DNA of 60,053 nt. Origin: a phage. Within the stretch, counting starts at the first letter, position 1. Each line of letters begins with the position of its first letter. The notes beneath the pieces were generated by a model. It was not told where the DNA came from, searched no databases, and was given only the letters and a program-made list of their open reading frames with translations. The stretch lies in NCBI GenBank assembly GCA_012409925.1, contig GCA_012409925.1_4804.1; one strand, 5' to 3'. Shown one piece after another: positions 15,456-46,132 of this stretch. Made by a program: the position numbers and the translations under genes.

Positions 15456-16874
15456 TTATTCCCCTTTCAACCAAGCTTCAAATGCTTCGTCAGTTGCTGC
15501 AGAATCCGCAGCGGCCTTTTGTTTTGCGACTACACGCTGTTTTTGACCGTGCTCAACGCCGCGCAGATAATTATCCACCACGTCAAACTCAGCACCATCA
15601 ACGCACTTCAAGCCTAACTTTTTAGCGCCATATTTCGCTACGGACTTGGAGTCCATAGTTGCATGATCAAAGGCACCAACAACTTTAGACAGGCGCTGGT
15701 AGAGGCTATTCTTACGAGCAGAATCAGCGTAGAAAGCAGCAACTGCTGAATCAGATGCCATTGAGTGTTCCCCTTTTGCTGGACCTGGCGACGCTTTCGC
15801 CGCTTTTGTCGGTTTGTCATCTTTTTCGACCGAAGCCCCCTTTACGTTGCTGTTTTGCAGGCCGCTAACCACATCTTCAGCTTTGTCGCAAGGTGATACA
15901 TCTTCAGCCTTGACTTCAACTTCTTCGTCTTTGACTTCGGCTTCAACTTCTTCTTCATCACCTACCGCGCCACCTTTCAGTTTTGCAATAAGTGCTTCGA
16001 TTTGGCTGATCAGTTGCGGAAGCTCGCCGCCAGCGTGAGATTCAGTTTCAACTTCAAACTTCTCTTCACCTTCTGGAGTCTCTTCAGCTTCTGCTTTAAC
16101 TTCTGGATCAACCATCACTTCTTCACGTTCTTCGGTTGAATCCTTCTCTTCTGCTTTCACTTCAACTTCGTCCTGATGAGCCGCTTCGGTGCTCTCTTCA
16201 TTCAGAAATTGTTCGAGCGCAGGGATCAGTGATTTCAGCTGTTCAACAGCATTATCACGCGCTTTACCTTTTAACGGTTTTGGCATGTCTAAATCCTCGT
16301 TGGATGGTGTTACAGTCGTCAAACAAAGATGGTCAAAGCAACGACCATCCAGCACCCGTGCACCTGGTACTCGACCAACGTCCACGAGAGCAATGTGGTT
16401 GCCGCGAAGAGTTGTCTGTACCACTTCATACGGCTGCCCGTCAAACTCTCCAGACTGTATGATGAATTCACAGTCATAGCCCAAAGACAAGTCAACCTTT
16501 CCAGAATCGATGGCCTTCTTCAGACGACGGCTAAAAACTTTAAGGTCGCCGCGCATCCATGGCTTGTCATAATAAACATTGCCAGTTAGAACGCCATCAA
16601 CGCCATACTCTTCGGGTGCTGTGTTATCCTCATCACCTTCGAATCCAGAAAGCATTTCGTGATTGTCGATGAAAGGGATATTTTTGAATGAATCTATCGC
16701 TTCGGGGTCTTTCACCGCTGACTCTGGGCGATAAACTTTTACGATGCGATTCGGATCACCATCAAGTCCAACCTGACCTGCAGAATAATCAAAAATGCCA
16801 AATGACGAAATGGGACAACCCACAATCGTCAAGAATCCATTTTTGTCAATTTCGCGTGCCGTTTGCATTCGCAT
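15456..16874 (-). CDS. prohead protease/scaffold-like protein, 472 aa
   Basis: Globular N-terminal ~170 aa followed by a highly acidic low-complexity region (DEEEVEAEVKDEEVEVKAED...) typical of scaffolding proteins. Confidence 0.45.
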   Translation of the reverse strand: MRMQTAREIDKNGFLTIVGCPISSFGIFDYSAGQVGLDGDPNRIVKVYRPESAVKDPEAIDSFKNIPFIDNHEMLSGFEGDEDNTAPEEYGVDGVLTGNVYYDKPWMRGDLKVFSRRLKKAIDSGKVDLSLGYDCEFIIQSGEFDGQPYEVVQTTLRGNHIALVDVGRVPGARVLDGRCFDHLCLTTVTPSNEDLDMPKPLKGKARDNAVEQLKSLIPALEQFLNEESTEAAHQDEVEVKAEEKDSTEEREEVMVDPEVKAEAEETPEGEEKFEVETESHAGGELPQLISQIEALIAKLKGGAVGDEEEVEAEVKDEEVEVKAEDVSPCDKAEDVVSGLQNSNVKGASVEKDDKPTKAAKASPGPAKGEHSMASDSAVAAFYADSARKNSLYQRLSKVVGAFDHATMDSKSVAKYGAKKLGLKCVDGAEFDVVDNYLRGVEHGQKQRVVAKQKAAADSAATDEAFEAWLKGE

Positions 16875-16984
16875 CCACCCTCAAATAAGTATTGTGTATT
16901 ATATCTAATGAAAAAAACTTAGGCAAACAATAATTATGGTTTGAATATGTATAACAACCGATATAGCCGCGCCTTAATTAGTGT

Positions 16985-17260
16985 GATACGGATGATACGG
17001 ATAAAATGAGGCGTATTTTTATCCGTATCGGTGTATAAGCCGCGCTATCACTGGTGTGCTACGGATGATACGGATGATACGGATACTTTTCATATATAAG
17101 AGTTTATAAAAAAATAAAATTAAATTAGATATATAATTTTAAATTAATTTATTTGAATTCCTATATAGTACGGCGGCAACGCGTATCATCCGTATCATCC
17201 GTAAGATTCTTTTGAAAACAACAACTTACTTGATACGGATGATACGTCATTATACGTATA
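16985..17260. repeat. iteron cluster A: about 10 copies of GATACGGAT/ATCCGTATC in both orientations flanking a ~70-bp AT-rich block
   Basis: Direct reading: tandem copies at 16985-17002 and 17061-17086; inverse copies at 17021-17029 and 17182-17205; further copies 17232-17250; AT-rich block 17091-17170. Confidence 0.8.
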
Positions 17261-17437
17261 AAACTCGCGGCAATCCTTTGCCGATGAATTCAGTGAATAT
17301 TAAATAGCACTCCTGCCACTAAAACGCCAATCAACATCGAGTCATAAACAGCCCATTTCCAAGAAAGCAAAGAGTTGCAATTAATATTTCGCACTTTAAC
17401 ATAACGTGACTGAATAATCTTTTGCATAACTTCCTCT

Positions 17438-18358
17438 TTAGTTCAGCTTAATTGCGGTGATCTGTCCGTAAACGGTAGATGTCAACGCGTCGGTGCATTG
17501 ATAGTTTAAATACACATTACCAGGCGCGGCAAGAGTAATTACTTTTGTTGGGATGTTGCCGCCGAAGCGACCTGCAGTCCGAATGCCAGCTGACATGGCA
17601 AATGCATCATCCGTAATATCTGAATTGCTTGTTGACAATTTGACTGTAATTCCGGTATTCGCTTGAACGCCTGCTGTCGCGACAGTCAACTGACTTGCTG
17701 TTACAAGCCATTTCCCTGCAGGAAGGTTTAAGGTTGCCAGATTGACCAAAGTTGTTGGAGGATTGCTGACGCTATTAGTGGCATTCTGGACGGTACTTGC
17801 TGCTGCATTAAGCACACCAGACCCATCAATTGATAGAGTTGTACCGACCTTTACGCCGCCTAAAGTAGATGCTGAGGCAATCGGCAATGAGTATTGGGTG
17901 ACGCTGATTGTACCATCACCTGCTACGCTTATTCCGGTGCCTATTTTGACGCCACCAAGAACGGAAGCTGTTGCCGCTGGTAACGTGTATTGGTTGCCGC
18001 TGGTTTTCACAACTTTGACTGCGACAGCGTTTTTCGACCCTCCAGACTCCATACCTATGATCACTGCTTCACCAAAAGCAATGGTGATTGTTGATGCAGT
18101 CAAGCCAGTTTGAACGTCTGTGATGTTCATCTTAGGCACAGACAATGTCAGGTTAGGCTTGCTGGTCGAATCGCCATCATTGCCAATCATAAAGAATTGA
18201 CCTACTGAGTTATACCCTGATGCAAGCGGCGGGCTCAGTGGAACCATCAAGTTTTTATCAGAAGTGAATTCTGAGACAATTGCCAAGCCATTAGCATACA
18301 CCGCAGGCAAGACTGGAGTTTGTCCAGATAGAGGGAATGTGTTGATTGGTATCGTCAT
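17438..18358 (-). CDS. virion protein with two internal ~33-aa tandem repeats
   Basis: ORF track frame; start moved to ATG at 18358 (GAGG RBS); repeats YTLPAATASVLGGVKIGTGISVAGDGTISV / YSLPIASASTLGGVKVGTTLSIDGSGVLNA. Confidence 0.45.
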   Translation of the reverse strand: MTIPINTFPLSGQTPVLPAVYANGLAIVSEFTSDKNLMVPLSPPLASGYNSVGQFFMIGNDGDSTSKPNLTLSVPKMNITDVQTGLTASTITIAFGEAVIIGMESGGSKNAVAVKVVKTSGNQYTLPAATASVLGGVKIGTGISVAGDGTISVTQYSLPIASASTLGGVKVGTTLSIDGSGVLNAAASTVQNATNSVSNPPTTLVNLATLNLPAGKWLVTASQLTVATAGVQANTGITVKLSTSNSDITDDAFAMSAGIRTAGRFGGNIPTKVITLAAPGNVYLNYQCTDALTSTVYGQITAIKLN

Positions 18359-18365
18359 AATGACC

Positions 18366-19217
18366 TCAGATAATTGGTATTTTTCTGCACTTGCAGTGTA
18401 TTGCCCATCCAGGAGGACCGATGTCACCCTTTTTGAACTTAAGTTCTCCACCTACTTCCCATAAGCGTTTGTCATCAAGCTTGAATCTCATGCCGTCGAC
18501 GTGCTCATGTGATATTCGCGGCTCTTTGCCTGCTCCTGAATGCGCCCACTCAAATTCCTCAACGCCATTCTGTCGCATCCTTTCATCACTTAATACGCAA
18601 TAAAGTTTGCTCGTTTGGTCTTTGGCGATAAGGTCTACGCGTTTTGCAGAGAATTGTTTTACATTCCTTAGTGCCGCCTGAATGCCGGATGTGCCTTGCT
18701 GCGCTGGGTCTGGCGAAGTCAGCGAAAGCATCACCGCTTCGTACACCCTGTTGTGAATATCCTCGCCAACCTTAGTCACTAGAGTCGTGTTGAACGTCTC
18801 GCTTGTTTTAAGAGTGTTCTCAACGAATTTATTATATGTGGCTTTTGGCGCTTCTATTCCTGCAGATTTAAGACTTGCGAATGTAGCAGAAGTCGCACCC
18901 TTTTCAACTGACTTGATGAAATCTGCGGCAATCTTTGACCCAACACGGGCGAATGCTTTTGCCCATTTCAGTTGAAGGCGCTTCATCAAGGTCTGAAAAG
19001 TTGAATCAGCAGAGTCTTGCGCAAAGAACCTTTTCACCTGCTTCTTTTCAAGCCACTCAGCAATGCCTGCCTGATAGTCATCAATCATCGCATAGCAAAG
19101 ACCTTTCATCTCACGACGATAGGCCATCGCAATAGCGTTGGATGGGATTATCGGACTGCCGCGCCCGATTCTATCGGGTGAGCGGCGTTCGCGTTTTTTC
19201 GAAGCTTTAAAAGCCAT
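18366..19217 (-). CDS. head morphogenesis protein, MuF-like
   Basis: Directly downstream of portal; C-terminal ...GWAIHCKCRKIP... Cys/His motif typical of Mu F-like proteins; start at ATG 19217 abutting portal stop. Confidence 0.55.
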   Translation of the reverse strand: MAFKASKKRERRSPDRIGRGSPIIPSNAIAMAYRREMKGLCYAMIDDYQAGIAEWLEKKQVKRFFAQDSADSTFQTLMKRLQLKWAKAFARVGSKIAADFIKSVEKGATSATFASLKSAGIEAPKATYNKFVENTLKTSETFNTTLVTKVGEDIHNRVYEAVMLSLTSPDPAQQGTSGIQAALRNVKQFSAKRVDLIAKDQTSKLYCVLSDERMRQNGVEEFEWAHSGAGKEPRISHEHVDGMRFKLDDKRLWEVGGELKFKKGDIGPPGWAIHCKCRKIPII

Positions 19218-22413: not shown

Positions 22414-23874
22414 TTAAAGGTTAGAGAAGAAGCCGGATGCTGCAACGATTGGTTTCATCAATGCCATGATTGCTGCGTCCGCTTTGTTAGGTGATTTGAC
22501 TCCACGCTTTGCCATATCCTTTTTGGATTCAACTTTGAACTTGCCAAGAACAGACGTATCTTTGCGCGGCGCTGACATCTCAAAAAGAAACGTCTCAATC
22601 TCTTCAGTAGTCCAAGCTGGAATCCCAAGTTCCGGTATGCCATCGGTGTCGATTGAAATCAATTCATCAGTCGGATATACGGCTTGCCCAGTCGCATACT
22701 CGTATGTCTTTCTGAATCGTTCCGCAATCTCAGTCCACTTTTGCGCTTTTATGTTTGCAAAATGGTCTTTATTGAGTATTTCAACGTGTGGTAGTTCAAG
22801 AAAAACGTCATCAGGATCATCAACAGACCCTTGCGCATTGAACGCATTAAATTCGATTCTTGGAAATGATGGATTTTCATGTATTGCATACTCGTTCAGT
22901 TCATCAAATTTTGAACCAGCAAAAGCGCCGACACCGATGGCATCATAAGTTATAGAAGCGCCAAATGTAAGCGCATCTTTCCAAACTCCGCTTGCCGATT
23001 TCAACAATTCATCTTCCAGACCTTCCCACGTCTTGATGCCACGTAATACGTTTCCTGTAACGAATGCAGTGGCATTAAGGTCGTCGCCATCGTCCGCTAC
23101 GTCAAAGCCTATACGGTTAGACCCTGACAAACTCCAGCCCAGCGTAGGGTGTTTGTGGAGATTAAGAGCGGCCTTAACGAATGCACGGTTGATTACAGAT
23201 TTATCGCCGCCAGTCTTCGGCACGCCGCCATAAACGTGCTCTGCCTTTTTCGGGTCGCGCTCGTACATGCCTGCAATAACGTCCAGCATCGTTTGCGACA
23301 AGAATGGGTTGTCTTGCCAGTTTATCTTTTTAACTATGGCATTCTTCGGCGGTCGCATAACAAAGTTTTGGTAGACGAAATCGGCCTCTTCATCAGGGTT
23401 AAAGATGATCCATATTTCTGACCCTTCTTTACGGATTGTCGGCTCAATAATGTCCCACTGTTCTTCAGTAAGTGCGTGCGCTTCTTCCAGCCAAAGAACA
23501 TCAACACCTTCCGTTGATTTAATTTCATCAACGTTACGTGCGATACCGTAAAATAGAAATTCAGATTTAGTTCTTTTATGCTCGATAGAGTTCTTTAATA
23601 AATTGAACTCATCTTTAAAATCAGAAATCTCTATTTTATCTTTTAATAGAGTATATACAGATTCAGAAATCTTGTTCTGGAATTGTCGAACGCAAAGGAA
23701 TTTTAATTTGAAGTTTGCCGCCAAATAAATAGCAAAACCAGCGGCATCGTGCGATTTGGAAGATGCACGACCGCCGTATATTACTTTGTATCGCGCTTTT
23801 GTCTTCCAGACTTCTTTTAAAGCAGGATTCAACTGGTACATGACTTTCCAATTACGTGTTAATATTTTATTCAT
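22414..23874 (-). CDS. terminase large subunit
   Basis: 486 aa; N-terminal P-loop ...KVIYGGRASSKS...; acidic nuclease-like C-terminal half; alternative start at 23841 (Met12) has a better RBS. Confidence 0.8.
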   Translation of the reverse strand: MNKILTRNWKVMYQLNPALKEVWKTKARYKVIYGGRASSKSHDAAGFAIYLAANFKLKFLCVRQFQNKISESVYTLLKDKIEISDFKDEFNLLKNSIEHKRTKSEFLFYGIARNVDEIKSTEGVDVLWLEEAHALTEEQWDIIEPTIRKEGSEIWIIFNPDEEADFVYQNFVMRPPKNAIVKKINWQDNPFLSQTMLDVIAGMYERDPKKAEHVYGGVPKTGGDKSVINRAFVKAALNLHKHPTLGWSLSGSNRIGFDVADDGDDLNATAFVTGNVLRGIKTWEGLEDELLKSASGVWKDALTFGASITYDAIGVGAFAGSKFDELNEYAIHENPSFPRIEFNAFNAQGSVDDPDDVFLELPHVEILNKDHFANIKAQKWTEIAERFRKTYEYATGQAVYPTDELISIDTDGIPELGIPAWTTEEIETFLFEMSAPRKDTSVLGKFKVESKKDMAKRGVKSPNKADAAIMALMKPIVAASGFFSNL

Positions 23875-32681: not shown

Positions 32682-33155
32682 CTAGTGGCGGGAGAATTGC
32701 TCGCCTTCTTTGGCCGCCTCTCCGAAATCCTTGTAGAAATCGTCCATGGAACGGCCCATTTTACTATTGCCGTTTTCATCAATCATCGTGATGCCGTAGA
32801 TGATGTTCAGTTCACGAATAGCATTAAGCTTGGCTGACGCCGCGACTTCTGGATCACGCACAAGCTTGACCAAATTGTGAATTGCACCTTTTACGCTCCA
32901 CAAATCCTTGAGTGGCATCTCTTCCATACGCTTTTTGAAGCGCATCTTGTAGTATGGATTGCGTTGCGTGCAAAGGATTCGCTGGCCAGTGTAGTTATCC
33001 GTTGCAACTTCCATTCCAAATACTAGTGCAAAAGCTGCGCGCATGTCATGGCCCTGAATAACAAGGTCAATGAACTCATCGAATAAAGCCTGATTGTGCT
33101 CTGCAAATCGCGGGTCTTCAAAGTCTTCAGGCATCGCTACATAATCTTGACTCAT
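32682..33155 (-). CDS. hypothetical protein, 157 aa (small-terminase candidate, speculative)
   Basis: ORF track frame from ATG 33155 (MSQDYVAMPEDFEDPRF...); ordinary codon usage; start codon abuts three tandem motif copies. Confidence 0.4.
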   Translation of the reverse strand: MSQDYVAMPEDFEDPRFAEHNQALFDEFIDLVIQGHDMRAAFALVFGMEVATDNYTGQRILCTQRNPYYKMRFKKRMEEMPLKDLWSVKGAIHNLVKLVRDPEVAASAKLNAIRELNIIYGITMIDENGNSKMGRSMDDFYKDFGEAAKEGEQFSRH

Positions 33156-33280
33156 AGTGCAAAATCCCATAGTGCAAATTAATAGTGTGAATTATACAAT
33201 GGATGGACATTATATTCAAGTGCAGATTGATGTTCATTATGGCTATAAACATACACAAATCATAGTGCTGAATGAATAGC

Positions 33281-33874
33281 GGACCGTGGTGCGTGGTGTA
33301 CTGTTTGATACGTATAAAATAAATCCATCCCTTTTGCCGCTTGTTATGCAAATCAATGACTTAGCCGCTGCTGGCTGGTTGAAGCGTATCATGACGTATC
33401 ATCCGTATTGCCGCAAGTCTTTGTTTTTACTTATATCTTACGGATAATACGTATAAATATAAGTTTAGTATAAGTATGAGGATGTAGAAAAAAAATTAAT
33501 TTAAATGTTTTTAAAATGGAGTTAATTAATTTTTAGAATTATTCTGGTTACAATAAGAAAAAATGGCGTATCATCCGTATCATCCGTATGAGTGTACCAG
33601 TAGAATCCAGGCGCGGCGCACCTTACAGCCATGATACGTCTCAATACGGCCAAAAACCTATCCGTAAGAGTGTACGCATCAACCAAAGAATCCAGGCGCG
33701 GCGCACTCTTCCACACCACACACCACGGTTCAATCTCCAAAATCCACACACTAAAAGTCACAATCACCGTATCATTCTCCAAAAATAAATCCAAATTTCC
33801 ATTTTATTTATTATTTTCATCCACAATATCCTAAATTCCATCCGTATCAACCAAGCCTCAACCCACCACGGTCC
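33281..33874. repeat. iteron cluster B: ATCCGTATC-type repeats, 19-bp direct repeat and AT-rich block, bracketed by 11-bp inverted repeat
   Basis: GCGTATCATCCGTATCATCCGTA at 33567-33589 identical to 17181-17203; further copies at 33385-33410, 33437-33457, 33631-33649, 33659-33668, 33766-33777 and 33841-33851; GAATCCAGGCGCGGCGCAC at 33603 and 33688; GGACCGTGGTG (33281) / CACCACGGTCC (33864). Confidence 0.8.
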
Positions 33875-33982
33875 ACGCCACTCACTTCAAAATTTCCATC
33901 AAAAACGACAAAAGGCCGCATAAAGCGACCAATTGTACACGTCCCATTATTCAAAACACGTAAAACAGTGTCCGTTTATTTG

Positions 33983-41422: not shown

Positions 41423-42070
41423 TTATCCTGTGGCCTGCATATTGCGTACATACTTCTGCTCTAATGAATAGATGAAGTCGGCGACCGTCAATCCTTTGGT
41501 GTGCCATTCATACATGGTGAAGCCTGTATTCAGGAAATAGCCGCGCACCTTGTCCATCGCTTCAGCTTCCTCCATTGAAGCCATCAGCGCGGCGACGTTG
41601 TCATAAGAAGGCACAAATCCCTTCTTGCGTAGCGCATTGCGCAAATCTTTAGTTCTGAAGCCAATCTTGCAAGGGTCATCGCGACCCGTGGATGATGCAA
41701 CCTTCGGTAGCGCAAGGAACTCTTTAAGGAACATGGCAATGTTCAAGTCGCCTGCATCATCAAGCTTTTGGATTCGGTTGCGACCGCGACCCTTGAATTC
41801 ACTCGCACGAGGGTGAGCGCCAAAACAGTGCGCCCCTTCCAGCTTAGGGTCAATGATCATCACATCTTTCCCGATGCGCAGCTCTACGTAGTAAAGATAA
41901 GACTCATCGACAAGCTTTGTACGCTTGCAAGTGATTGAGTCCTTATCATAACCAAAGCCACGCAACACGGTTGAGATCATTCGGTTCATTTCTTCGCCGT
42001 GAACGTCACTTTCTTTGTTCAGTTCACCAAGATGTTGAAAGAATTTAGCGATGTTGATTGCTTTATTCAT
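41423..42070 (-). CDS. hypothetical protein, 215 aa
   Basis: ORF track; immediately downstream of helicase gene. Confidence 0.45.
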   Translation of the reverse strand: MNKAINIAKFFQHLGELNKESDVHGEEMNRMISTVLRGFGYDKDSITCKRTKLVDESYLYYVELRIGKDVMIIDPKLEGAHCFGAHPRASEFKGRGRNRIQKLDDAGDLNIAMFLKEFLALPKVASSTGRDDPCKIGFRTKDLRNALRKKGFVPSYDNVAALMASMEEAEAMDKVRGYFLNTGFTMYEWHTKGLTVADFIYSLEQKYVRNMQATG

Positions 42071-43740
42071 CAGAATTCATCCTTATCTCTTCCCAAAGAA
42101 CGTTTACGCTCAATAACCTTCTTCAAGAATTCAATATCTTCAGGGTCAGACTCATCGCGGATAAGATACGCTAAGATGGTCATCAAATCAGAAATGTATT
42201 CTCCTGCTTCATTCTTAATCAGCGGCGTAAAGTACCCGCGCTGGTTGCGATAGGTTGCAGGCTCAAAACCAAGCTTCGACATGTGCGGCGCAAGGGTACG
42301 AGAGAAAGGCGACTTGCCACACTTCGCTCTGAATCCCATAGCAATAGCACCACTGGTGATGTGCCAGCGTCCGCTGTGATGTCGGTCATAAGGCGCGGTG
42401 ATGACGACTTCAACAAGGTCGTTGTCCACCATCTCATCACGGATAACGCCGCGCGCACGTTCCATTTCGTTTTTACTGAACTCAGTAAGCATTCGAGATG
42501 TTTCACCAACAAACGCGTTATAGCCTGCTTCGCCGTTCTTCTCCATCCACGCAGCGCACTCAGCCATAAGCTGCCAAACGTCTTCTTTCAAAGTGGAAAG
42601 GTCGGCTTGGAAGTCCTTAGACCAGTTCGGTTGCCCGTCCTTGTCAGCGAGTTGGCCAACAAAGATAGGGTACACACGACGGTTGCCCGTGTCGTCACGC
42701 TGCATGCCTGCGTATTCGTTGCCGTCCATGATCGCAATCCACTGGCGTGGTTTAACCTGCGTATCTTCAAATTTGAAGTCCAGGTCATCTTCCGTCTTAG
42801 TCAGGAATGCTTTCATGTTTTCGATGTCGGCCTTTTTAAAGCCTGTCATCTCGCCGACGTTCGCGATAATTGAGCGACCCGTAATAGCTCGCAAGAACGG
42901 GTTGAAGTTTTGCGCGGCTAAGTTCAACGGAATCGGTGTTGCGTGGCGGTCGTTCATAATAGCTTCGCAAAGCAGCTTGCTAAAATAACTCTTCCCTGCG
43001 TTCTGGCCGCCGATGAGCGCGATGGAGATTGGCGCTTGACAGCCAGGGTTGGTCAGGCGGTTGTAGAGCGATAGCCAAAAATACACACCGATTTGTCGGT
43101 TTAACTCTGTATCGAACGGTCGGAATAGCTCGATAAGGTATTTCTCGATGCGCGCAGTACCGTCCCATTCAGGCAGCTTCTTGTAGAAGAAGTCCATCAG
43201 GTCGTCGCGCTGATAACGCATGGCCCATTCCTTATAGGATTGAGCGACCTGACGTGAGTTTGGGTTGGACAACCCTGCTGCGTCGACAGCAGCGACTATC
43301 TCTGTGACTTCCAAGGTACGGTCAGTGAATGTTTCGCCGCGATGGTCGACTAAGCGCCCACGAAAAGTATCTTTGTGAGGGAATGGAACAATGCCACTTC
43401 CCTTATCAAACAACGCGTCGAAAACCGCATAACGGTTCATGTCACTCGTCCGGTCTGCCTGTAGAACGAAGTCATCTTTGGTAGGCTTGTAGTGAGGGAA
43501 CTTGATTACCTGAAGTGAGGCGAGCAAGCGTGCTCTTTCAACCAAGTCTTCTTCACCGTAGCATTCCATGCGCTCTGAATCTTTTTCAACAGCTTTGTGT
43601 TGAAGGCTGATTTTAGCTCTGGTGCCTTGCTGCTCTGCTGCCTGCATTTCTTCCGAAACACCTGCATCTTGAATTTCGTCAAAGATTGCACCAAATTCAT
43701 CACCTGTATCCTCTGGAAGATTGTCATTATTAATTGACAT
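42070..43740 (-). CDS. VirE/D5-like replicative NTPase (helicase-primase-associated)
   Basis: 556 aa; P-loop ...IALIGGQNAGKSYF...; conserved LPEWDGTARIEKYL segment; AGGAGG RBS. Confidence 0.6.
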   Translation of the reverse strand: MSINNDNLPEDTGDEFGAIFDEIQDAGVSEEMQAAEQQGTRAKISLQHKAVEKDSERMECYGEEDLVERARLLASLQVIKFPHYKPTKDDFVLQADRTSDMNRYAVFDALFDKGSGIVPFPHKDTFRGRLVDHRGETFTDRTLEVTEIVAAVDAAGLSNPNSRQVAQSYKEWAMRYQRDDLMDFFYKKLPEWDGTARIEKYLIELFRPFDTELNRQIGVYFWLSLYNRLTNPGCQAPISIALIGGQNAGKSYFSKLLCEAIMNDRHATPIPLNLAAQNFNPFLRAITGRSIIANVGEMTGFKKADIENMKAFLTKTEDDLDFKFEDTQVKPRQWIAIMDGNEYAGMQRDDTGNRRVYPIFVGQLADKDGQPNWSKDFQADLSTLKEDVWQLMAECAAWMEKNGEAGYNAFVGETSRMLTEFSKNEMERARGVIRDEMVDNDLVEVVITAPYDRHHSGRWHITSGAIAMGFRAKCGKSPFSRTLAPHMSKLGFEPATYRNQRGYFTPLIKNEAGEYISDLMTILAYLIRDESDPEDIEFLKKVIERKRSLGRDKDEF

Positions 43741-45049: not shown

Positions 45050-46132
45050 CTATTTTATGCCACCTGCACGACGATTTATCATGTCAAGTTGATTCTCAAT
45101 ATAAGGCATGACGATTGCTTCAACAAAAGCAGTCCAACCTTTCTTGCCTTCCCCTTTCCGGTGGCAGTCGTGGGCGCAACCGAACACAAATTCATGTTCT
45201 GCACCAGGGATAGGGCCGCGAAAGTACGCGCCATACGGGTCGCCGTTGGTGTGCTCTTCACCCCAAGGGCAGATTATGCGGCACTTGCCTGACATATTCT
45301 CGATGACGTCGCCATCAGACCCTTCACCCATCTTGTTGCGCGCTAGAATCTGCTGGGCTATTTTATACCAAACAGCATCGTACTTGTATTCATCTACGTC
45401 AATTTGAATCTCACGCTTTTGCGGCATAACGACGTGAAAGCCGAATGCCTGACAGATGTCTTCGATGGTGTAGCGCAAGGAGTAGTCTGCATGGACAAGT
45501 CGGCAGCGGAACGGGTCGCCGTTCTCATCGACATATTTATAGGGGCCGTCGTGAGTCACACGCTTGTTGTTGATGCACCCAGGAACACGGCCCACGCGCG
45601 TTACGTCTTTAATCGTGTTGTCGCCGCCCTTCTTGAGTACCATGTTAACGAAAGACCCAAGGAACGCTTTGAACTGAATAAGATGGTCAATCGGTTCTTT
45701 AAAGAAGTACCAAAGCTGGTGGTTGTTCGGTGAAGTCTCGACGATGACAGTCGGCTTCAGTCGCTCGAAAAAGAATTCCAAATCTAAATCGCCTTTGGAC
45801 CCTTTACCGTGACCGATGTCGTCGACCATCATCGCCATACCGTGACCAAAGGCCGACTCTGTACGCCAGTATCGCATCTCACCCGTCTTTGGGTTGGGAG
45901 ACTTACGCATTGAACTGATGCACGCATAGCCGTTTTGGTGCTGCATGAGCGGCTTGCCCAACTTCCAAGGCTTAGGCCAGAAGCTGCTGTTAATCTTCTT
46001 GCCGCGCTCGTCAGTCTGCACCGTTGCTTCAGGAGCAAACACCGTCATGACGCGCTCATCTTCTGGGATGCCTCTTTGGAGTTCTGTTAAAAACTCTTCA
46101 ATTATTTTTGCTTCTTCTCTTAAACTAGCCAT
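45050..46132 (-). CDS. DNA primase-polymerase (PrimPol-like) with C-terminal zinc-binding primase domain
   Basis: 360 aa; ...MAMMVDDIGHG... and ...ETSPNNHQLWYFF... motifs; C-terminal CPWGEEH...CAHDCH Cys/His cluster. Confidence 0.55.
   Translation of the reverse strand: MASLREEAKIIEEFLTELQRGIPEDERVMTVFAPEATVQTDERGKKINSSFWPKPWKLGKPLMQHQNGYACISSMRKSPNPKTGEMRYWRTESAFGHGMAMMVDDIGHGKGSKGDLDLEFFFERLKPTVIVETSPNNHQLWYFFKEPIDHLIQFKAFLGSFVNMVLKKGGDNTIKDVTRVGRVPGCINNKRVTHDGPYKYVDENGDPFRCRLVHADYSLRYTIEDICQAFGFHVVMPQKREIQIDVDEYKYDAVWYKIAQQILARNKMGEGSDGDVIENMSGKCRIICPWGEEHTNGDPYGAYFRGPIPGAEHEFVFGCAHDCHRKGEGKKGWTAFVEAIVMPYIENQLDMINRRAGGIK

What the first reader, a model, noticed from the sequence alone, without database searches (positions are those of the whole stretch)
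16985..17260. Iteron cluster A with AT-rich core inside the structural operon
About 10 copies of the 9-mer GATACGGAT (both orientations, several in tandem) flank a ~70-bp AT-rich block (17091-17170), in the 560-bp gap between the repeat-containing virion protein gene and the scaffold gene. Iterons flanking an AT-rich unwinding element are the textbook architecture of a replication origin; alternatively a multi-site operator for a late-gene regulator. The 23-mer GCGTATCATCCGTATCATCCGTA (17181-17203) is identical to one in cluster B.
Basis: partly seen in the sequence, partly recalled or inferred. Interest (0 to 1): 0.65.

Follow-up and report, generated by a model that had tools for sequence, protein, structure and literature searches.

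The report
Second origin-like iteron module in phage
The repeat cluster is real and is one of two sister copies of a roughly 300-bp DNA element, conserved across PB1-like phages, that looks like a replication origin for the phage's own initiator helicase; the other copy holds the physical end of the packaged genome.

Summary
In 16984-17258 there are 7 exact and 4 degenerate copies of GATACGGAT (core TGATACG, 9-bp tandem period). They form inverted arrays around a 94-bp, 83% AT core, which is the least stable 100 bp of the window.

The window is a Wifcevirus, an E. coli myovirus related to Pseudomonas PB1-like phages. Cluster A has a paralogue, cluster B (33300-33660), upstream of the small terminase gene. 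Four genera carry the same A+B pair at the same two positions, each with its own iteron. A and B match within a genome but not between genera.

The phage encodes a RepB-type primase and a VapE-family SF3 helicase with a C-terminal winged helix. This helicase is a full-length structural homologue of SaPI1 Rep1, which binds iterons on both sides of an AT-rich origin core just downstream of rep. In 7 of 9 related lineages module B lies in that position.

Best reading (about 0.5): A is a second Rep-type origin or cis replication element. Main rival (about 0.2): small-terminase recognition arrays, because the left genome end (direct-terminal-repeat boundary) lies inside B's core in WFC, Mansfield and MyoSmar. 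Nothing has been tested experimentally.

The parts
16984..17002 (+). Outer left iteron array: two tandem 9-bp units (TGATACGGAT GATACGGAT)
17021..17029 (-). Single inverted iteron. It forms a 13-nt inverted repeat with 16994-17006 (GATACGGATAAAA / TTTTATCCGTATC).
17057..17084 (+). Inner left array: three tandem units (GCTACGGAT GATACGGAT GATACGGAT). Contains the left arm of the perfect 22-nt inverted repeat (17060-17081).
17085..17178 (.). AT-rich core (83% AT; 17087-17166 is 91% AT). Least stable 100 bp of the 60-kb window and the candidate DNA-unwinding element.
17179..17205 (-). Inner right array: three units in the opposite orientation. Contains the right arm of the 22-nt inverted repeat (17182-17203). 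The 23-mer 17181-17203 is identical to 33566-33588 in module B.
17231..17258 (+). Outer right array: TGATACGGATGATACGTCATTATACG (one exact unit and one or two degenerate units)
17268..17283 (-). Terminator-like hairpin (CGGCAAAGGATTGCCG followed by a T run) directly after the 45-aa ORF. It closes the upstream transcription unit before the module.
16898..16926 (-). Sigma70-like promoter TTGCCT-17-TATAAT (10 of 12 matches), about 25 nt upstream of the protease/scaffold start codon
15456..16874 (-). Head maturation protease/scaffold gene, downstream of module A
17290..17427 (-). 45-aa ORF annotated in relatives (WFC gp025), upstream of module A
33300..33660 (.). Module B, the paralogue of module A. 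It has inverted TGATACG arrays around the AT core 33458-33565 (82% AT, second least stable 100 bp). By homology to WFC the physical left genome end (direct-terminal-repeat boundary) falls at 33517/33518.
32682..33170 (-). Small terminase gene (homologue of E217 TerS, PDB 7UXE, E 6e-34), directly downstream of module B
42070..43740 (-). VapE-family SF3 initiator-helicase candidate (556 aa) with a C-terminal winged helix. Sequence and fold homologue of SaPI1 Rep1 (PDB 7PDS). Proposed iteron binder.
45050..46132 (-). RepB-type primase gene (Pfam PF16793), upstream of the helicase gene in a pri...rep arrangement

Best explanation
Cluster A is one of two paralogous cis elements of about 300 bp. Module A is 16984-17258 and module B is 33300-33660. 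I read them as replication-origin-type sites of the SaPI/P4 kind.

Proposed mechanism:
1. The C-terminal winged-helix domain of the phage's VapE-family SF3 helicase (window 42070-43740) recognises the TGATACG iterons.
2. Helicase rings assemble on the inverted arrays on either side of the core.
3. They melt the 94-bp AT core.
4. The RepB-type primase (45050-46132) primes synthesis, without host DnaA.

Module A would be a second origin, or a cis-acting replication enhancer comparable to P4 crr. It sits in a pocket between a terminator and the sigma70-like promoter of the protease/scaffold and capsid genes. Module B carries the same element and also holds the cut that makes the left genome end.

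Shown here: the repeat anatomy and its statistics; the A/B paralogy; the conservation of the pair across genera with genus-specific iterons; the homology of the helicase to SaPI1 Rep1; and the position of module B relative to rep and terS in relatives.

Inferred: that the helicase is the protein that binds the iterons, that the core melts, and that module A fires as an origin.
For: 1. Architecture. Eleven iteron units lie in inverted arrays, three plus three directly flanking a 100-nt spacer. The A and B cores are the two least stable 100-bp segments in 60 kb, about 4.4 sd from the mean. SaPI origins are described as 6-12 iterons, half on each side of a central AT-rich region with at least two per side in opposite directions, lying immediately downstream of rep and bound by the C-terminal winged helix of a self-loading SF3 helicase (PMC9371898).

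2. Cognate initiator.
- The 556-aa protein matches Pfam VapE-like at 1.3e-28.
- It matches PDB 7PDS (SaPI1 Rep1) at 2.9e-11 as a single sequence and 3.7e-20 as a profile.
- The AlphaFold2 model has mean pLDDT 89.5 and a C-terminal helix-helix-helix plus beta-hairpin, i.e. a winged helix, at residues 436-504.
- Its best fold match is 7PDS, E 1.6e-16 over about 480 columns. Next come NrS-1, SaPI5 PriRep5, poxvirus D5/E5 and papillomavirus E1.
- A RepB_primase gene lies upstream.

3. Position. An iteron and AT-core module lies directly after this helicase gene, with at most one small gene between, in 7 of 9 lineages: NH-4, Maja, MyoSmar, FoX7, L022, L023 and L024.

4. Specificity. Every lineage has its own iteron: GATACGGAT, GGTAATTTGG, GATAGTTAAC, TACTTTTCGTTTTT, CGTTATTTAA, TATCCGCAAGA and TTGCGGATTTG. 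The helicase winged-helix region is its most divergent domain in nearly every lineage pair.

5. A and B are kept alike within each genome (Smith-Waterman scores 39-89) but are unrelated between genera (22 or less, at shuffle level). This was found in four genera, so both copies answer to the same genome-specific factor.

6. DnaA boxes are not enriched (50 found against 60 expected) and no exact box lies in the modules.

7. A second origin copy has precedents: P4 ori/crr and SPP1 oriL/oriR (from memory).
Against: - No replication data exist.
- Module A is about 25 kb from the helicase gene. In this phage even module B is 8.4 kb from it, with 26 small genes between, so the 'immediately downstream of rep' feature is not met in the window itself.
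- Module B is adjacent to terS in 8 of 9 lineages. The packaged genome's left end lies inside its core in WFC, Mansfield and MyoSmar. This is what a terminase recognition site would look like.
- TerS also has a divergent N-terminal helix-turn-helix region.
- The covariation test between iteron classes and the helicase winged helix or the TerS N-terminus was inconclusive.
- FoX7 has no module A, so the second copy is dispensable in at least one genus.
Confidence: 0.5

Rival explanations
1. The arrays are recognition sites for the small terminase, i.e. a pac/cos-like packaging site. TerS rings would bind the iterons on both sides of the AT core and position TerL to cut within it. Module B would be the working site. 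Module A would be a second TerS-binding site, used for example for synapsis or for regulation, without a cut.
For: - The WFC record is linear with a 3784-bp direct terminal repeat. Its first base lies in the middle of module B's AT core, between inverted iteron arrays.
- Mansfield, analysed independently with PhageTerm, opens at the same place, 360 nt upstream of a gene annotated as small terminase.
- In MyoSmar, a different genus, the PhageTerm repeat boundary also falls inside its module B core.
- The gene downstream of B is a TerS homologue (PDB 7UXE, E 6e-34).
- B is adjacent to terS in 8 of 9 lineages.
- The size and layout, repeats on both sides of a cut region over about 270 bp, resemble SPP1 pacL/pacC/pacR and the P1 pac hexamers. 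T4 has a second pac-like sequence bound by its TerS (both from memory).
Against: - Module A is not a genome end in any record.
- The string at the cut, TTAACTCC|ATTTT(A/G)AAAAC, is conserved between WFC and a 75%-identical relative but is absent from module A. The cut signal is therefore separate from the shared module.
- The right end of the terminal repeat is cut without any iterons nearby.
- In FoX7 the only module lies next to the helicase gene and 2.9 kb from terS, and there are no iterons upstream of terS.
- E217 TerS showed no appreciable DNA binding in vitro, according to a review (PMC9611059).
- Eight or more precise iterons around a strongly meltable core are typical of origins rather than of known TerS sites.
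Confidence: 0.2
2. The arrays are a multi-site operator or enhancer for a phage transcription factor that controls the promoters of morphogenesis genes: terS downstream of B and protease/scaffold and capsid downstream of A.
For: - Both modules lie upstream of good sigma70-like promoters in the same orientation. For A this is TTGCCT-17-TATAAT at 16926-16898. For B it is TTGAAT-17-TATAAT at 33219-33191.
- Both are preceded by terminator-like hairpins, so each starts a new transcription unit.
- A sits in front of the protease gene in four genera.
Against: - The arrays are symmetric about the AT core, not about the promoters, and lie 150-300 bp upstream of them.
- No promoter-like site inside the core scores better than 9 of 12.
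- In FoX7 the module precedes small unknown genes, not terS, and the protease gene has no module.
- No conserved candidate regulator is evident among the genes shared by all genera.
Confidence: 0.1
3. The cluster is a functionless duplication, a recombination hot spot, or a small mobile element with terminal inverted repeats.
For: - A perfect 22-nt inverted repeat flanks 100 bp.
- The number of 9-bp units varies between isolates: 6, 7 or 8 exact copies.
- A metagenome assembly breaks at the repeat.
Against: - The same two positions are occupied in four genera whose proteins are only 28-45% identical.
- A and B are kept alike within each genome, while nothing is recognisable between genera. That pattern requires ongoing constraint or gene conversion, not decay.
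- The exact 9-mer GATACGGAT occurs nowhere outside the two clusters in the window, and the shorter TGATACG core occurs elsewhere only at about the chance level.
- An exact-match scan of IMG/VR for the 22-mer found only Wifcevirus genomes.
Confidence: 0.03

Closest known systems
SaPI (staphylococcal pathogenicity island) pri-rep-ori replicons, with Rep1/PriRep5 self-loading SF3 helicases
   Same: - Short lineage-specific iterons lie in two sets of opposite orientation around a central AT-rich region of about 80-100 bp.
- The initiator is a VapE/D5-family SF3 helicase with a C-terminal winged helix. The phage protein is a sequence and full-length fold homologue of SaPI1 Rep1.
- A separate primase gene lies upstream.
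- In most relatives the element lies directly downstream of the helicase gene.
   Different: - The host here is a 68-kb virulent myovirus, not a satellite.
- The iterons are longer (7-11 bp against 5-6 bp).
- There are two copies per genome.
- The copy studied here lies in the head-gene operon, far from rep.
- In this genus 26 small genes separate rep from module B.
- Module B also holds the packaged genome end.
- Binding and replication have not been tested.
Satellite phage P4 ori and crr, bound by the alpha primase-helicase (from memory)
   Same: - There are two separated clusters of the same short iteron in one genome.
- They are recognised by the C-terminal DNA-binding domain of an SF3 primase-helicase.
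- The second cluster acts in cis for replication.
   Different: - In P4 primase and helicase are fused in one protein.
- P4 crr consists of direct 120-bp repeats without the symmetric AT core seen here.
- The two P4 sites are 4.5 kb apart; here they are 16.4 kb apart.
Terminase recognition sites: SPP1 pacL/pacC/pacR, P1 pac, lambda cosB (from memory)
   Same: - Repeated protein-binding boxes flank the region where the genome end is cut.
- The site lies next to the small terminase gene. This applies to module B.
   Different: - Module A is not an end and is not next to terS.
- The number and precision of iterons, and the extreme meltability of the core, are not features of those sites.
- The cut-site string of B is missing from A.
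T7 secondary origins at phiOL/phiOR next to the terminal repeat, and the short-repeat arrays SRL/SRR (from memory)
   Same: An origin-like, AT-rich element with short repeats sits at the junction between the unique sequence and the direct terminal repeat, and a further origin lies internally.
   Different: - T7 origins are primed by T7 RNA polymerase promoters, not by an iteron-binding helicase.
- The T7 repeat is 160 bp; here it is about 3.7 kb.

Membership tests
SaPI/P4-type Rep-iteron origin (self-loading SF3 initiator helicase) | The genome encodes a VapE/D5-family SF3 helicase with a C-terminal winged-helix DNA-binding domain | tested here: met
   - Pfam VapE-like, 1.3e-28.
- PDB 7PDS SaPI1 Rep1: 2.9e-11 as a single sequence and 3.7e-20 as a profile.
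- AlphaFold2 model with pLDDT 89.5 and a winged helix at residues 436-504.
- Best fold match 7PDS, E 1.6e-16 over about 480 columns.
SaPI/P4-type Rep-iteron origin (self-loading SF3 initiator helicase) | 6-12 short iterons, about half on each side of a central AT-rich region, with at least two per side in opposite orientation | tested here: met
   Eleven units are present, with three plus three directly flanking a 94-bp core of 83% AT. The perfect 22-nt inverted arms are 100 nt apart.
SaPI/P4-type Rep-iteron origin (self-loading SF3 initiator helicase) | The origin lies immediately downstream of the rep open reading frame | tested here: not met
   Module A is about 25 kb from rep and module B is 8.4 kb from rep in this window. 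The feature is met for module B in 7 of 9 related lineages (NH-4, Maja, MyoSmar, FoX7, L022, L023, L024). The ancestral position therefore fits, but this copy does not.
SaPI/P4-type Rep-iteron origin (self-loading SF3 initiator helicase) | Iteron sequence and the initiator's DNA-binding domain vary together between lineages | tested here: inconclusive
   Iterons differ in every lineage. The winged-helix region is the most divergent helicase domain in nearly every lineage pair, with a WHD/ATPase identity ratio of 0.2-0.7. Lineage pairs that share an iteron core were not clear outliers, and the TerS N-terminus is also divergent.
SaPI/P4-type Rep-iteron origin (self-loading SF3 initiator helicase) | The initiator binds the iterons, melts the core, and the element supports replication | not testable with these tools
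   This needs gel-shift or footprinting assays, a plasmid replication assay, or marker-frequency sequencing.
DnaA-dependent iteron origin (lambda or plasmid type) | DnaA boxes lie next to the iterons and the AT-rich region | tested here: not met
   TTATNCACA with up to one mismatch gives 50 hits against 60 expected. No exact box lies in either module.
Terminase recognition / packaging initiation site (pac or cos type) | A physical genome end lies within or beside the site | tested here: not met
   For module A, no related record ends there. The ends determined for WFC, Mansfield and MyoSmar map to module B. The feature is met for module B, by homology.
Terminase recognition / packaging initiation site (pac or cos type) | The site lies in or next to the small terminase gene | tested here: not met
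   Module A lies between a head-fibre-like gene and the protease gene, 15.5 kb from terS. Module B does meet this feature.
Terminase recognition / packaging initiation site (pac or cos type) | The small terminase binds the repeats specifically | not testable with these tools
   The only indirect information is a review stating that E217 TerS showed no appreciable DNA binding in vitro (PMC9611059). I could not check which DNA was used.
Known structured RNA family | A match to an Rfam covariance model | tested here: not met
   No match at gathering threshold anywhere in the window. In 16800-17500 there are only sub-threshold microRNA-precursor hits, caused by the inverted repeats.

The most novel reading that the evidence does not exclude
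Replication initiation and genome-end formation are mechanically coupled in these phages. The left boundary of the 3.7-kb direct terminal repeat lies inside the unwinding core of origin copy B. This could be because synthesis started there duplicates the repeat in concatemers before or while terminase cuts, or because terminase is recruited to an origin complex. Copy A would then be the origin that lacks the cut signal. This would give a concrete answer to how long direct terminal repeats are regenerated, which is unsolved outside T7.
Probability: 0.15. Interest if true: 0.8.

Novelty: new variant of a known kind. Interest (0 to 1): 0.58.

Why it matters
PB1-like phages include the Pbunavirus group, which is widely used in Pseudomonas phage therapy, and the fast-growing Wifcevirus group. 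In the literature I could search I found no mapped replication origin and no defined packaging site for them.

This analysis gives two candidate cis elements with exact coordinates, a named candidate initiator, and a conserved pattern across at least four genera and several metagenomic lineages.

If confirmed, it would extend the SaPI/P4 self-loading helicase origin type to a large family of virulent myoviruses. It would explain the large gap in the head operon. It would also flag sequences that must be kept intact when these genomes are rebuilt or engineered.

The coincidence of the genome end with the core of the sister copy makes the link between replication and terminal-repeat formation directly testable.

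Tried and rejected
- Rfam, whole window at gathering threshold and the region at E up to 1: nothing real.
- Promoter scan of the AT core: no site inside it scores better than 9 of 12; the good promoters lie outside the arrays.
- DnaA boxes: not enriched.
- IMG/VR exact scan for the 22-mer: only Wifcevirus genomes, so no wider distribution and no extra diversity. The contig that ends 4 nt after the repeat is an assembly break, not a physical end.
- Alignment of module A across five Wifcevirus genomes: too conserved to show which positions are constrained. One sequence was entered in the wrong orientation and was ignored.
- GC-skew profile: it follows transcription direction and gives no origin signal.
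- Covariation test of iteron class against the helicase winged helix or the TerS N-terminus across nine lineages: inconclusive.
- Transcript maps for Pbunavirus 14-1: the supplementary tables are not held, so transcription start sites near the modules could not be checked.
- The E217 terminase paper and the SaPI origin papers (Ubeda 2007, 2012) are not held. Their content is cited only through PMC9611059 and PMC9371898.
- Literature searches for Wifcevirus, Pbunavirus terminal repeats, and origins or repeats in PB1-like phages found no description of these modules.
- Mobile-element reading: rejected because the position is conserved across genera and no further clusters of the motif occur elsewhere in the window.

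Full report
**What the window is.** The region is 96-99% identical to 29 Wifcevirus genomes (E. coli/Shigella myoviruses such as WFC, ECML-117, Bas98-101). These are distant relatives of the Pseudomonas PB1-like phages, genus Pbunavirus (PMC11990801). Around the finding all genes are on the minus strand. In order they are a head-fibre-like gene (17438-18451; Pfam Phage_head_fibr), a 45-aa ORF annotated in relatives (17290-17427), a 415-bp non-coding stretch, and the head maturation protease/scaffold gene (15456-16874).

**The observation.**
- Exact GATACGGAT occurs 9 times in 60 kb against 0.32 expected, and no shuffle out of 100 reached 9. Seven copies lie in 16985-17240 and two lie in the second cluster.
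- With four degenerate in-register units there are about 11 units. They are arranged as two forward, one reverse, three forward, the core, three reverse, then two to three forward.
- The tandem period is 9 bp. The shared core is TGATACG, with 8 hits in A, 8 in B and 7 elsewhere, which is about the chance level.
- A perfect 22-nt inverted repeat (17060-17081 / 17182-17203) encloses exactly 100 nt.
- The core 17085-17178 is 83% AT. Windows 17068-17167 and 33444-33543 are the first and second least stable 100-bp windows of the whole sequence, at dG -101 and -102 against a mean of -137.8 and sd 8.2.
- The 23-mer shared with cluster B is confirmed.
- A terminator-like hairpin (17283-17268, minus strand) precedes the module. 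A sigma70-like promoter (TTGCCT-17-TATAAT, 16926-16898) follows it.

**Cluster A has a paralogue, and the pair is conserved.**
- Aligned in gene direction, A (16960-17290) and B (33300-33660) are homologous over about 350 bp. The homology includes the AT core and is not limited to the iterons.
- The large gap upstream of the protease gene also exists in three other genera: Pbunavirus NH-4 (512 bp), Bcepfunavirus Maja (457 bp) and Myosmarvirus MyoSmar (470 bp).
- In each of these the gap carries inverted arrays of a different short repeat around an AT- or purine-rich core: GGTAATTTGG with an 8-bp period, GATAGTTAAC with a 10-bp period, and TACTTTTCGTTTTT.
- In each of these genomes the same repeat also forms a second cluster upstream of the small terminase gene. 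In Maja, ATAGTTAAC occurs only in these two clusters in the whole genome.
- Smith-Waterman scores between A and B of the same genome are 39, 81, 89 and 40. All between-genus pairs score 22 or less, and shuffled maxima are 12-20.
- The two copies therefore evolve in concert within a genome and diverge completely between genera. This is the expected signature of two sites read by the same genome-specific protein.
- Carpasinavirus FoX7 has only one module. Its iteron CGTTATTWA occurs six times, all in one place in the complete genome.

**What lies at module B.**
- The WFC record is linear, 72,472 bp, with genes gp001-007 repeated as gp107-113, i.e. a 3784-bp direct terminal repeat. The paper reports about 3.7 kb (PMC6563267).
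- WFC's first base lies in the middle of module B's AT core, between inverted iteron arrays...AATTAATTAACTCC|ATTTTAAAAAC....
[quoted passage not shown] Its first real gene is at the same coordinates, 361-834, and is annotated as small terminase.
- The window's version of that gene (32682-33170) matches the E217 small terminase structure 7UXE at E 6e-34.
- In MyoSmar, the boundary of the PhageTerm-predicted terminal repeat nearest terS also falls inside its module B core.
- By homology the left end maps to window 33517/33518 and the right repeat end to about 29535. The right end has no iterons nearby.
- In a 75%-identical metagenomic relative (L021) the iteron core and the string around the cut, TTAACTCC|ATTTTGAAAAC, are both conserved. 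That string is absent from module A. B therefore consists of the shared module plus a cut signal, and A is the shared module alone.

**The candidate binder.**
- Window 42070-43740 encodes a 556-aa VapE-like protein (Pfam 1.3e-28), and 45050-46132 encodes a RepB-type primase.
- The VapE-like protein matches PDB 7PDS at 2.9e-11 as a single sequence and 3.7e-20 as a profile. 7PDS is the SaPI1 Rep1-DNA complex (PMC9371898).
- An AlphaFold2 model built from 62 homologues has mean pLDDT 89.5. It ends in a winged helix: helices 436-448, 463-474 and 480-489, and a hairpin at 493-504.
- Its best PDB fold match is 7PDS, E 1.6e-16 over about 480 columns of a 451-residue chain. Next come the NrS-1 helicase, SaPI5 PriRep5, poxvirus D5/E5, ASFV PrimPol and papillomavirus E1.
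- According to PMC9371898, SaPI Reps are self-loading initiator helicases. Their C-terminal winged helix binds 6-12 iterons that lie immediately downstream of rep, half on each side of a central AT-rich region, with at least two per side pointing in opposite directions. This is the anatomy seen here.
- Module B lies directly after the VapE-like gene, with at most one small gene between, in NH-4, Maja, MyoSmar, FoX7 and three metagenomic lineages (L022, L023, L024). Each of the latter has its own iterons, for example TATCCGCAAGA and TTGCGGATTTG.
- Only in Wifcevirus and L021 do about 8 kb of small genes intervene.
- The winged-helix region is the most divergent helicase domain in nearly every lineage pair.
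- DnaA boxes are not enriched.

**Weighing the readings.**
- Rep and terS are neighbours in the ancestral layout, with the module between them, so position alone cannot separate the origin reading from the packaging reading.
- Two lineages separate them, in opposite directions. In FoX7 the module stays with rep. In Wifcevirus it stays with terS.
- Four things favour an origin-type element: the full match to the SaPI origin anatomy; a full-length Rep1 homologue in the genome; the extreme meltability of both cores; and a second copy that is not a genome end and lacks the cut string.
- Four things favour terminase recognition: the physical end inside B's core in three phages of two genera; the adjacency to terS; the divergent N-terminal region of TerS; and known pac sites with boxes on both sides of the cut.
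- A review states that E217 TerS showed no appreciable DNA binding in vitro (PMC9611059). I could not check which DNA was used.
- The operator reading is the weakest. The arrays are centred on the core, 150-300 bp from the promoters, and FoX7 does not fit it.
- My estimates are: origin-type element about 0.5, TerS arrays about 0.2, operator about 0.1, and functionless or mobile about 0.03. The remainder covers mixed or unforeseen roles.
- The readings can be combined. B may serve both replication and end formation. That is the most novel case my evidence does not exclude.

**Comparison with known systems and novelty.** The element works like a SaPI/P4-type origin and meets two of its defining features: the cognate helicase and the iteron-core anatomy. 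It fails the feature 'immediately downstream of rep' for this copy, and binding and replication are untested. I therefore do not file it as a proven member. Three things are new. This origin type appears in a large family of virulent myoviruses. There are two concerted copies, one embedded in the head-gene operon. And the sister copy's core coincides with the boundary of the direct terminal repeat. I found no description of these modules in the searchable literature.

**Limits.** All functional statements are inferences from sequence, structure prediction and comparison. The genome ends are taken from database records and two announcement-type papers, not from reads. The covariation test was inconclusive. 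Statements about P4, SPP1, P1, T4 and T7 rest on my own knowledge.

Noticed in passing
window 32682-33170 (-): This gene is a small terminase (PDB 7UXE homologue, E 6e-34), although most related records call it hypothetical. It is the first gene inside the direct terminal repeat and lies about 9 kb from the large terminase gene (22414-23874). It sits behind a strong sigma70-like promoter, so it may be expressed early.
   Followed up: partly
window 33517/33518 and about 29535: By homology to WFC and Mansfield, these are the left physical genome end and the right end of the direct terminal repeat of about 3.7-4.0 kb. The right end maps with 4 mismatches and is only approximate. No iterons lie near it.
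   Followed up: partly
window 33596-33715: There are two direct copies of GAATCCAGGCGCGGCGCAC beside module B. MyoSmar has a related 26-nt inverted pair (TGGCTCTATGGTGCGCCGCGACTGGG) bracketing its module B at 263 nt. These are specific to B, so they could be packaging-related.
   Followed up: no
window 33600-33900; also L010 1400-1690, L008 13690-13800, L011 2230-2380, L019 14030-14140: Strongly strand-skewed (C/A-rich or G/T-rich) stretches, partly tandem-repeated, flank module B in every genus. Several records annotate them as small ORFs (NH-4 gp77, MyoSmar gp007, FoX7 gp79), which are probably not genes.
   Followed up: no
window 16965-16972, 17038-17045, 17171-17178, 17264-17272; same pattern in NH-4, Maja, MyoSmar, FoX7, L022, L023: Boxes of the form GCGGC(A/G), often CGCGGCA, recur on the top strand downstream of the core and on the bottom strand upstream of it, in all genera whatever their iteron. 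They could be a site for a conserved factor, or priming sites. This is unexplained.
   Followed up: no
module A in window, L001 (Bas99) and L002 (WFC): The number of exact 9-bp units differs between isolates: 7, 8 and 6. The arrays therefore expand and contract.
   Followed up: partly
L016 (IMGVR_UViG_3300045988_152943): A 68.5-kb metagenome contig ends 4 nt after the module A inverted repeat. This is most likely an assembler break at a repeat, not a physical end.
   Followed up: no
window 41423-42070 (-): A 215-aa protein with no Pfam match directly follows the helicase gene. A similar-sized gene (216 and 225 aa) follows it in L021 and L022. It may be a replication accessory protein.
   Followed up: no
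L004 3600-4020 (FoX7): Three tiny annotated ORFs (gp08-gp10, one of them called a DNA methyltransferase at 43 aa) fill the protease-upstream gap of FoX7. This gap carries no iteron module.
   Followed up: partly
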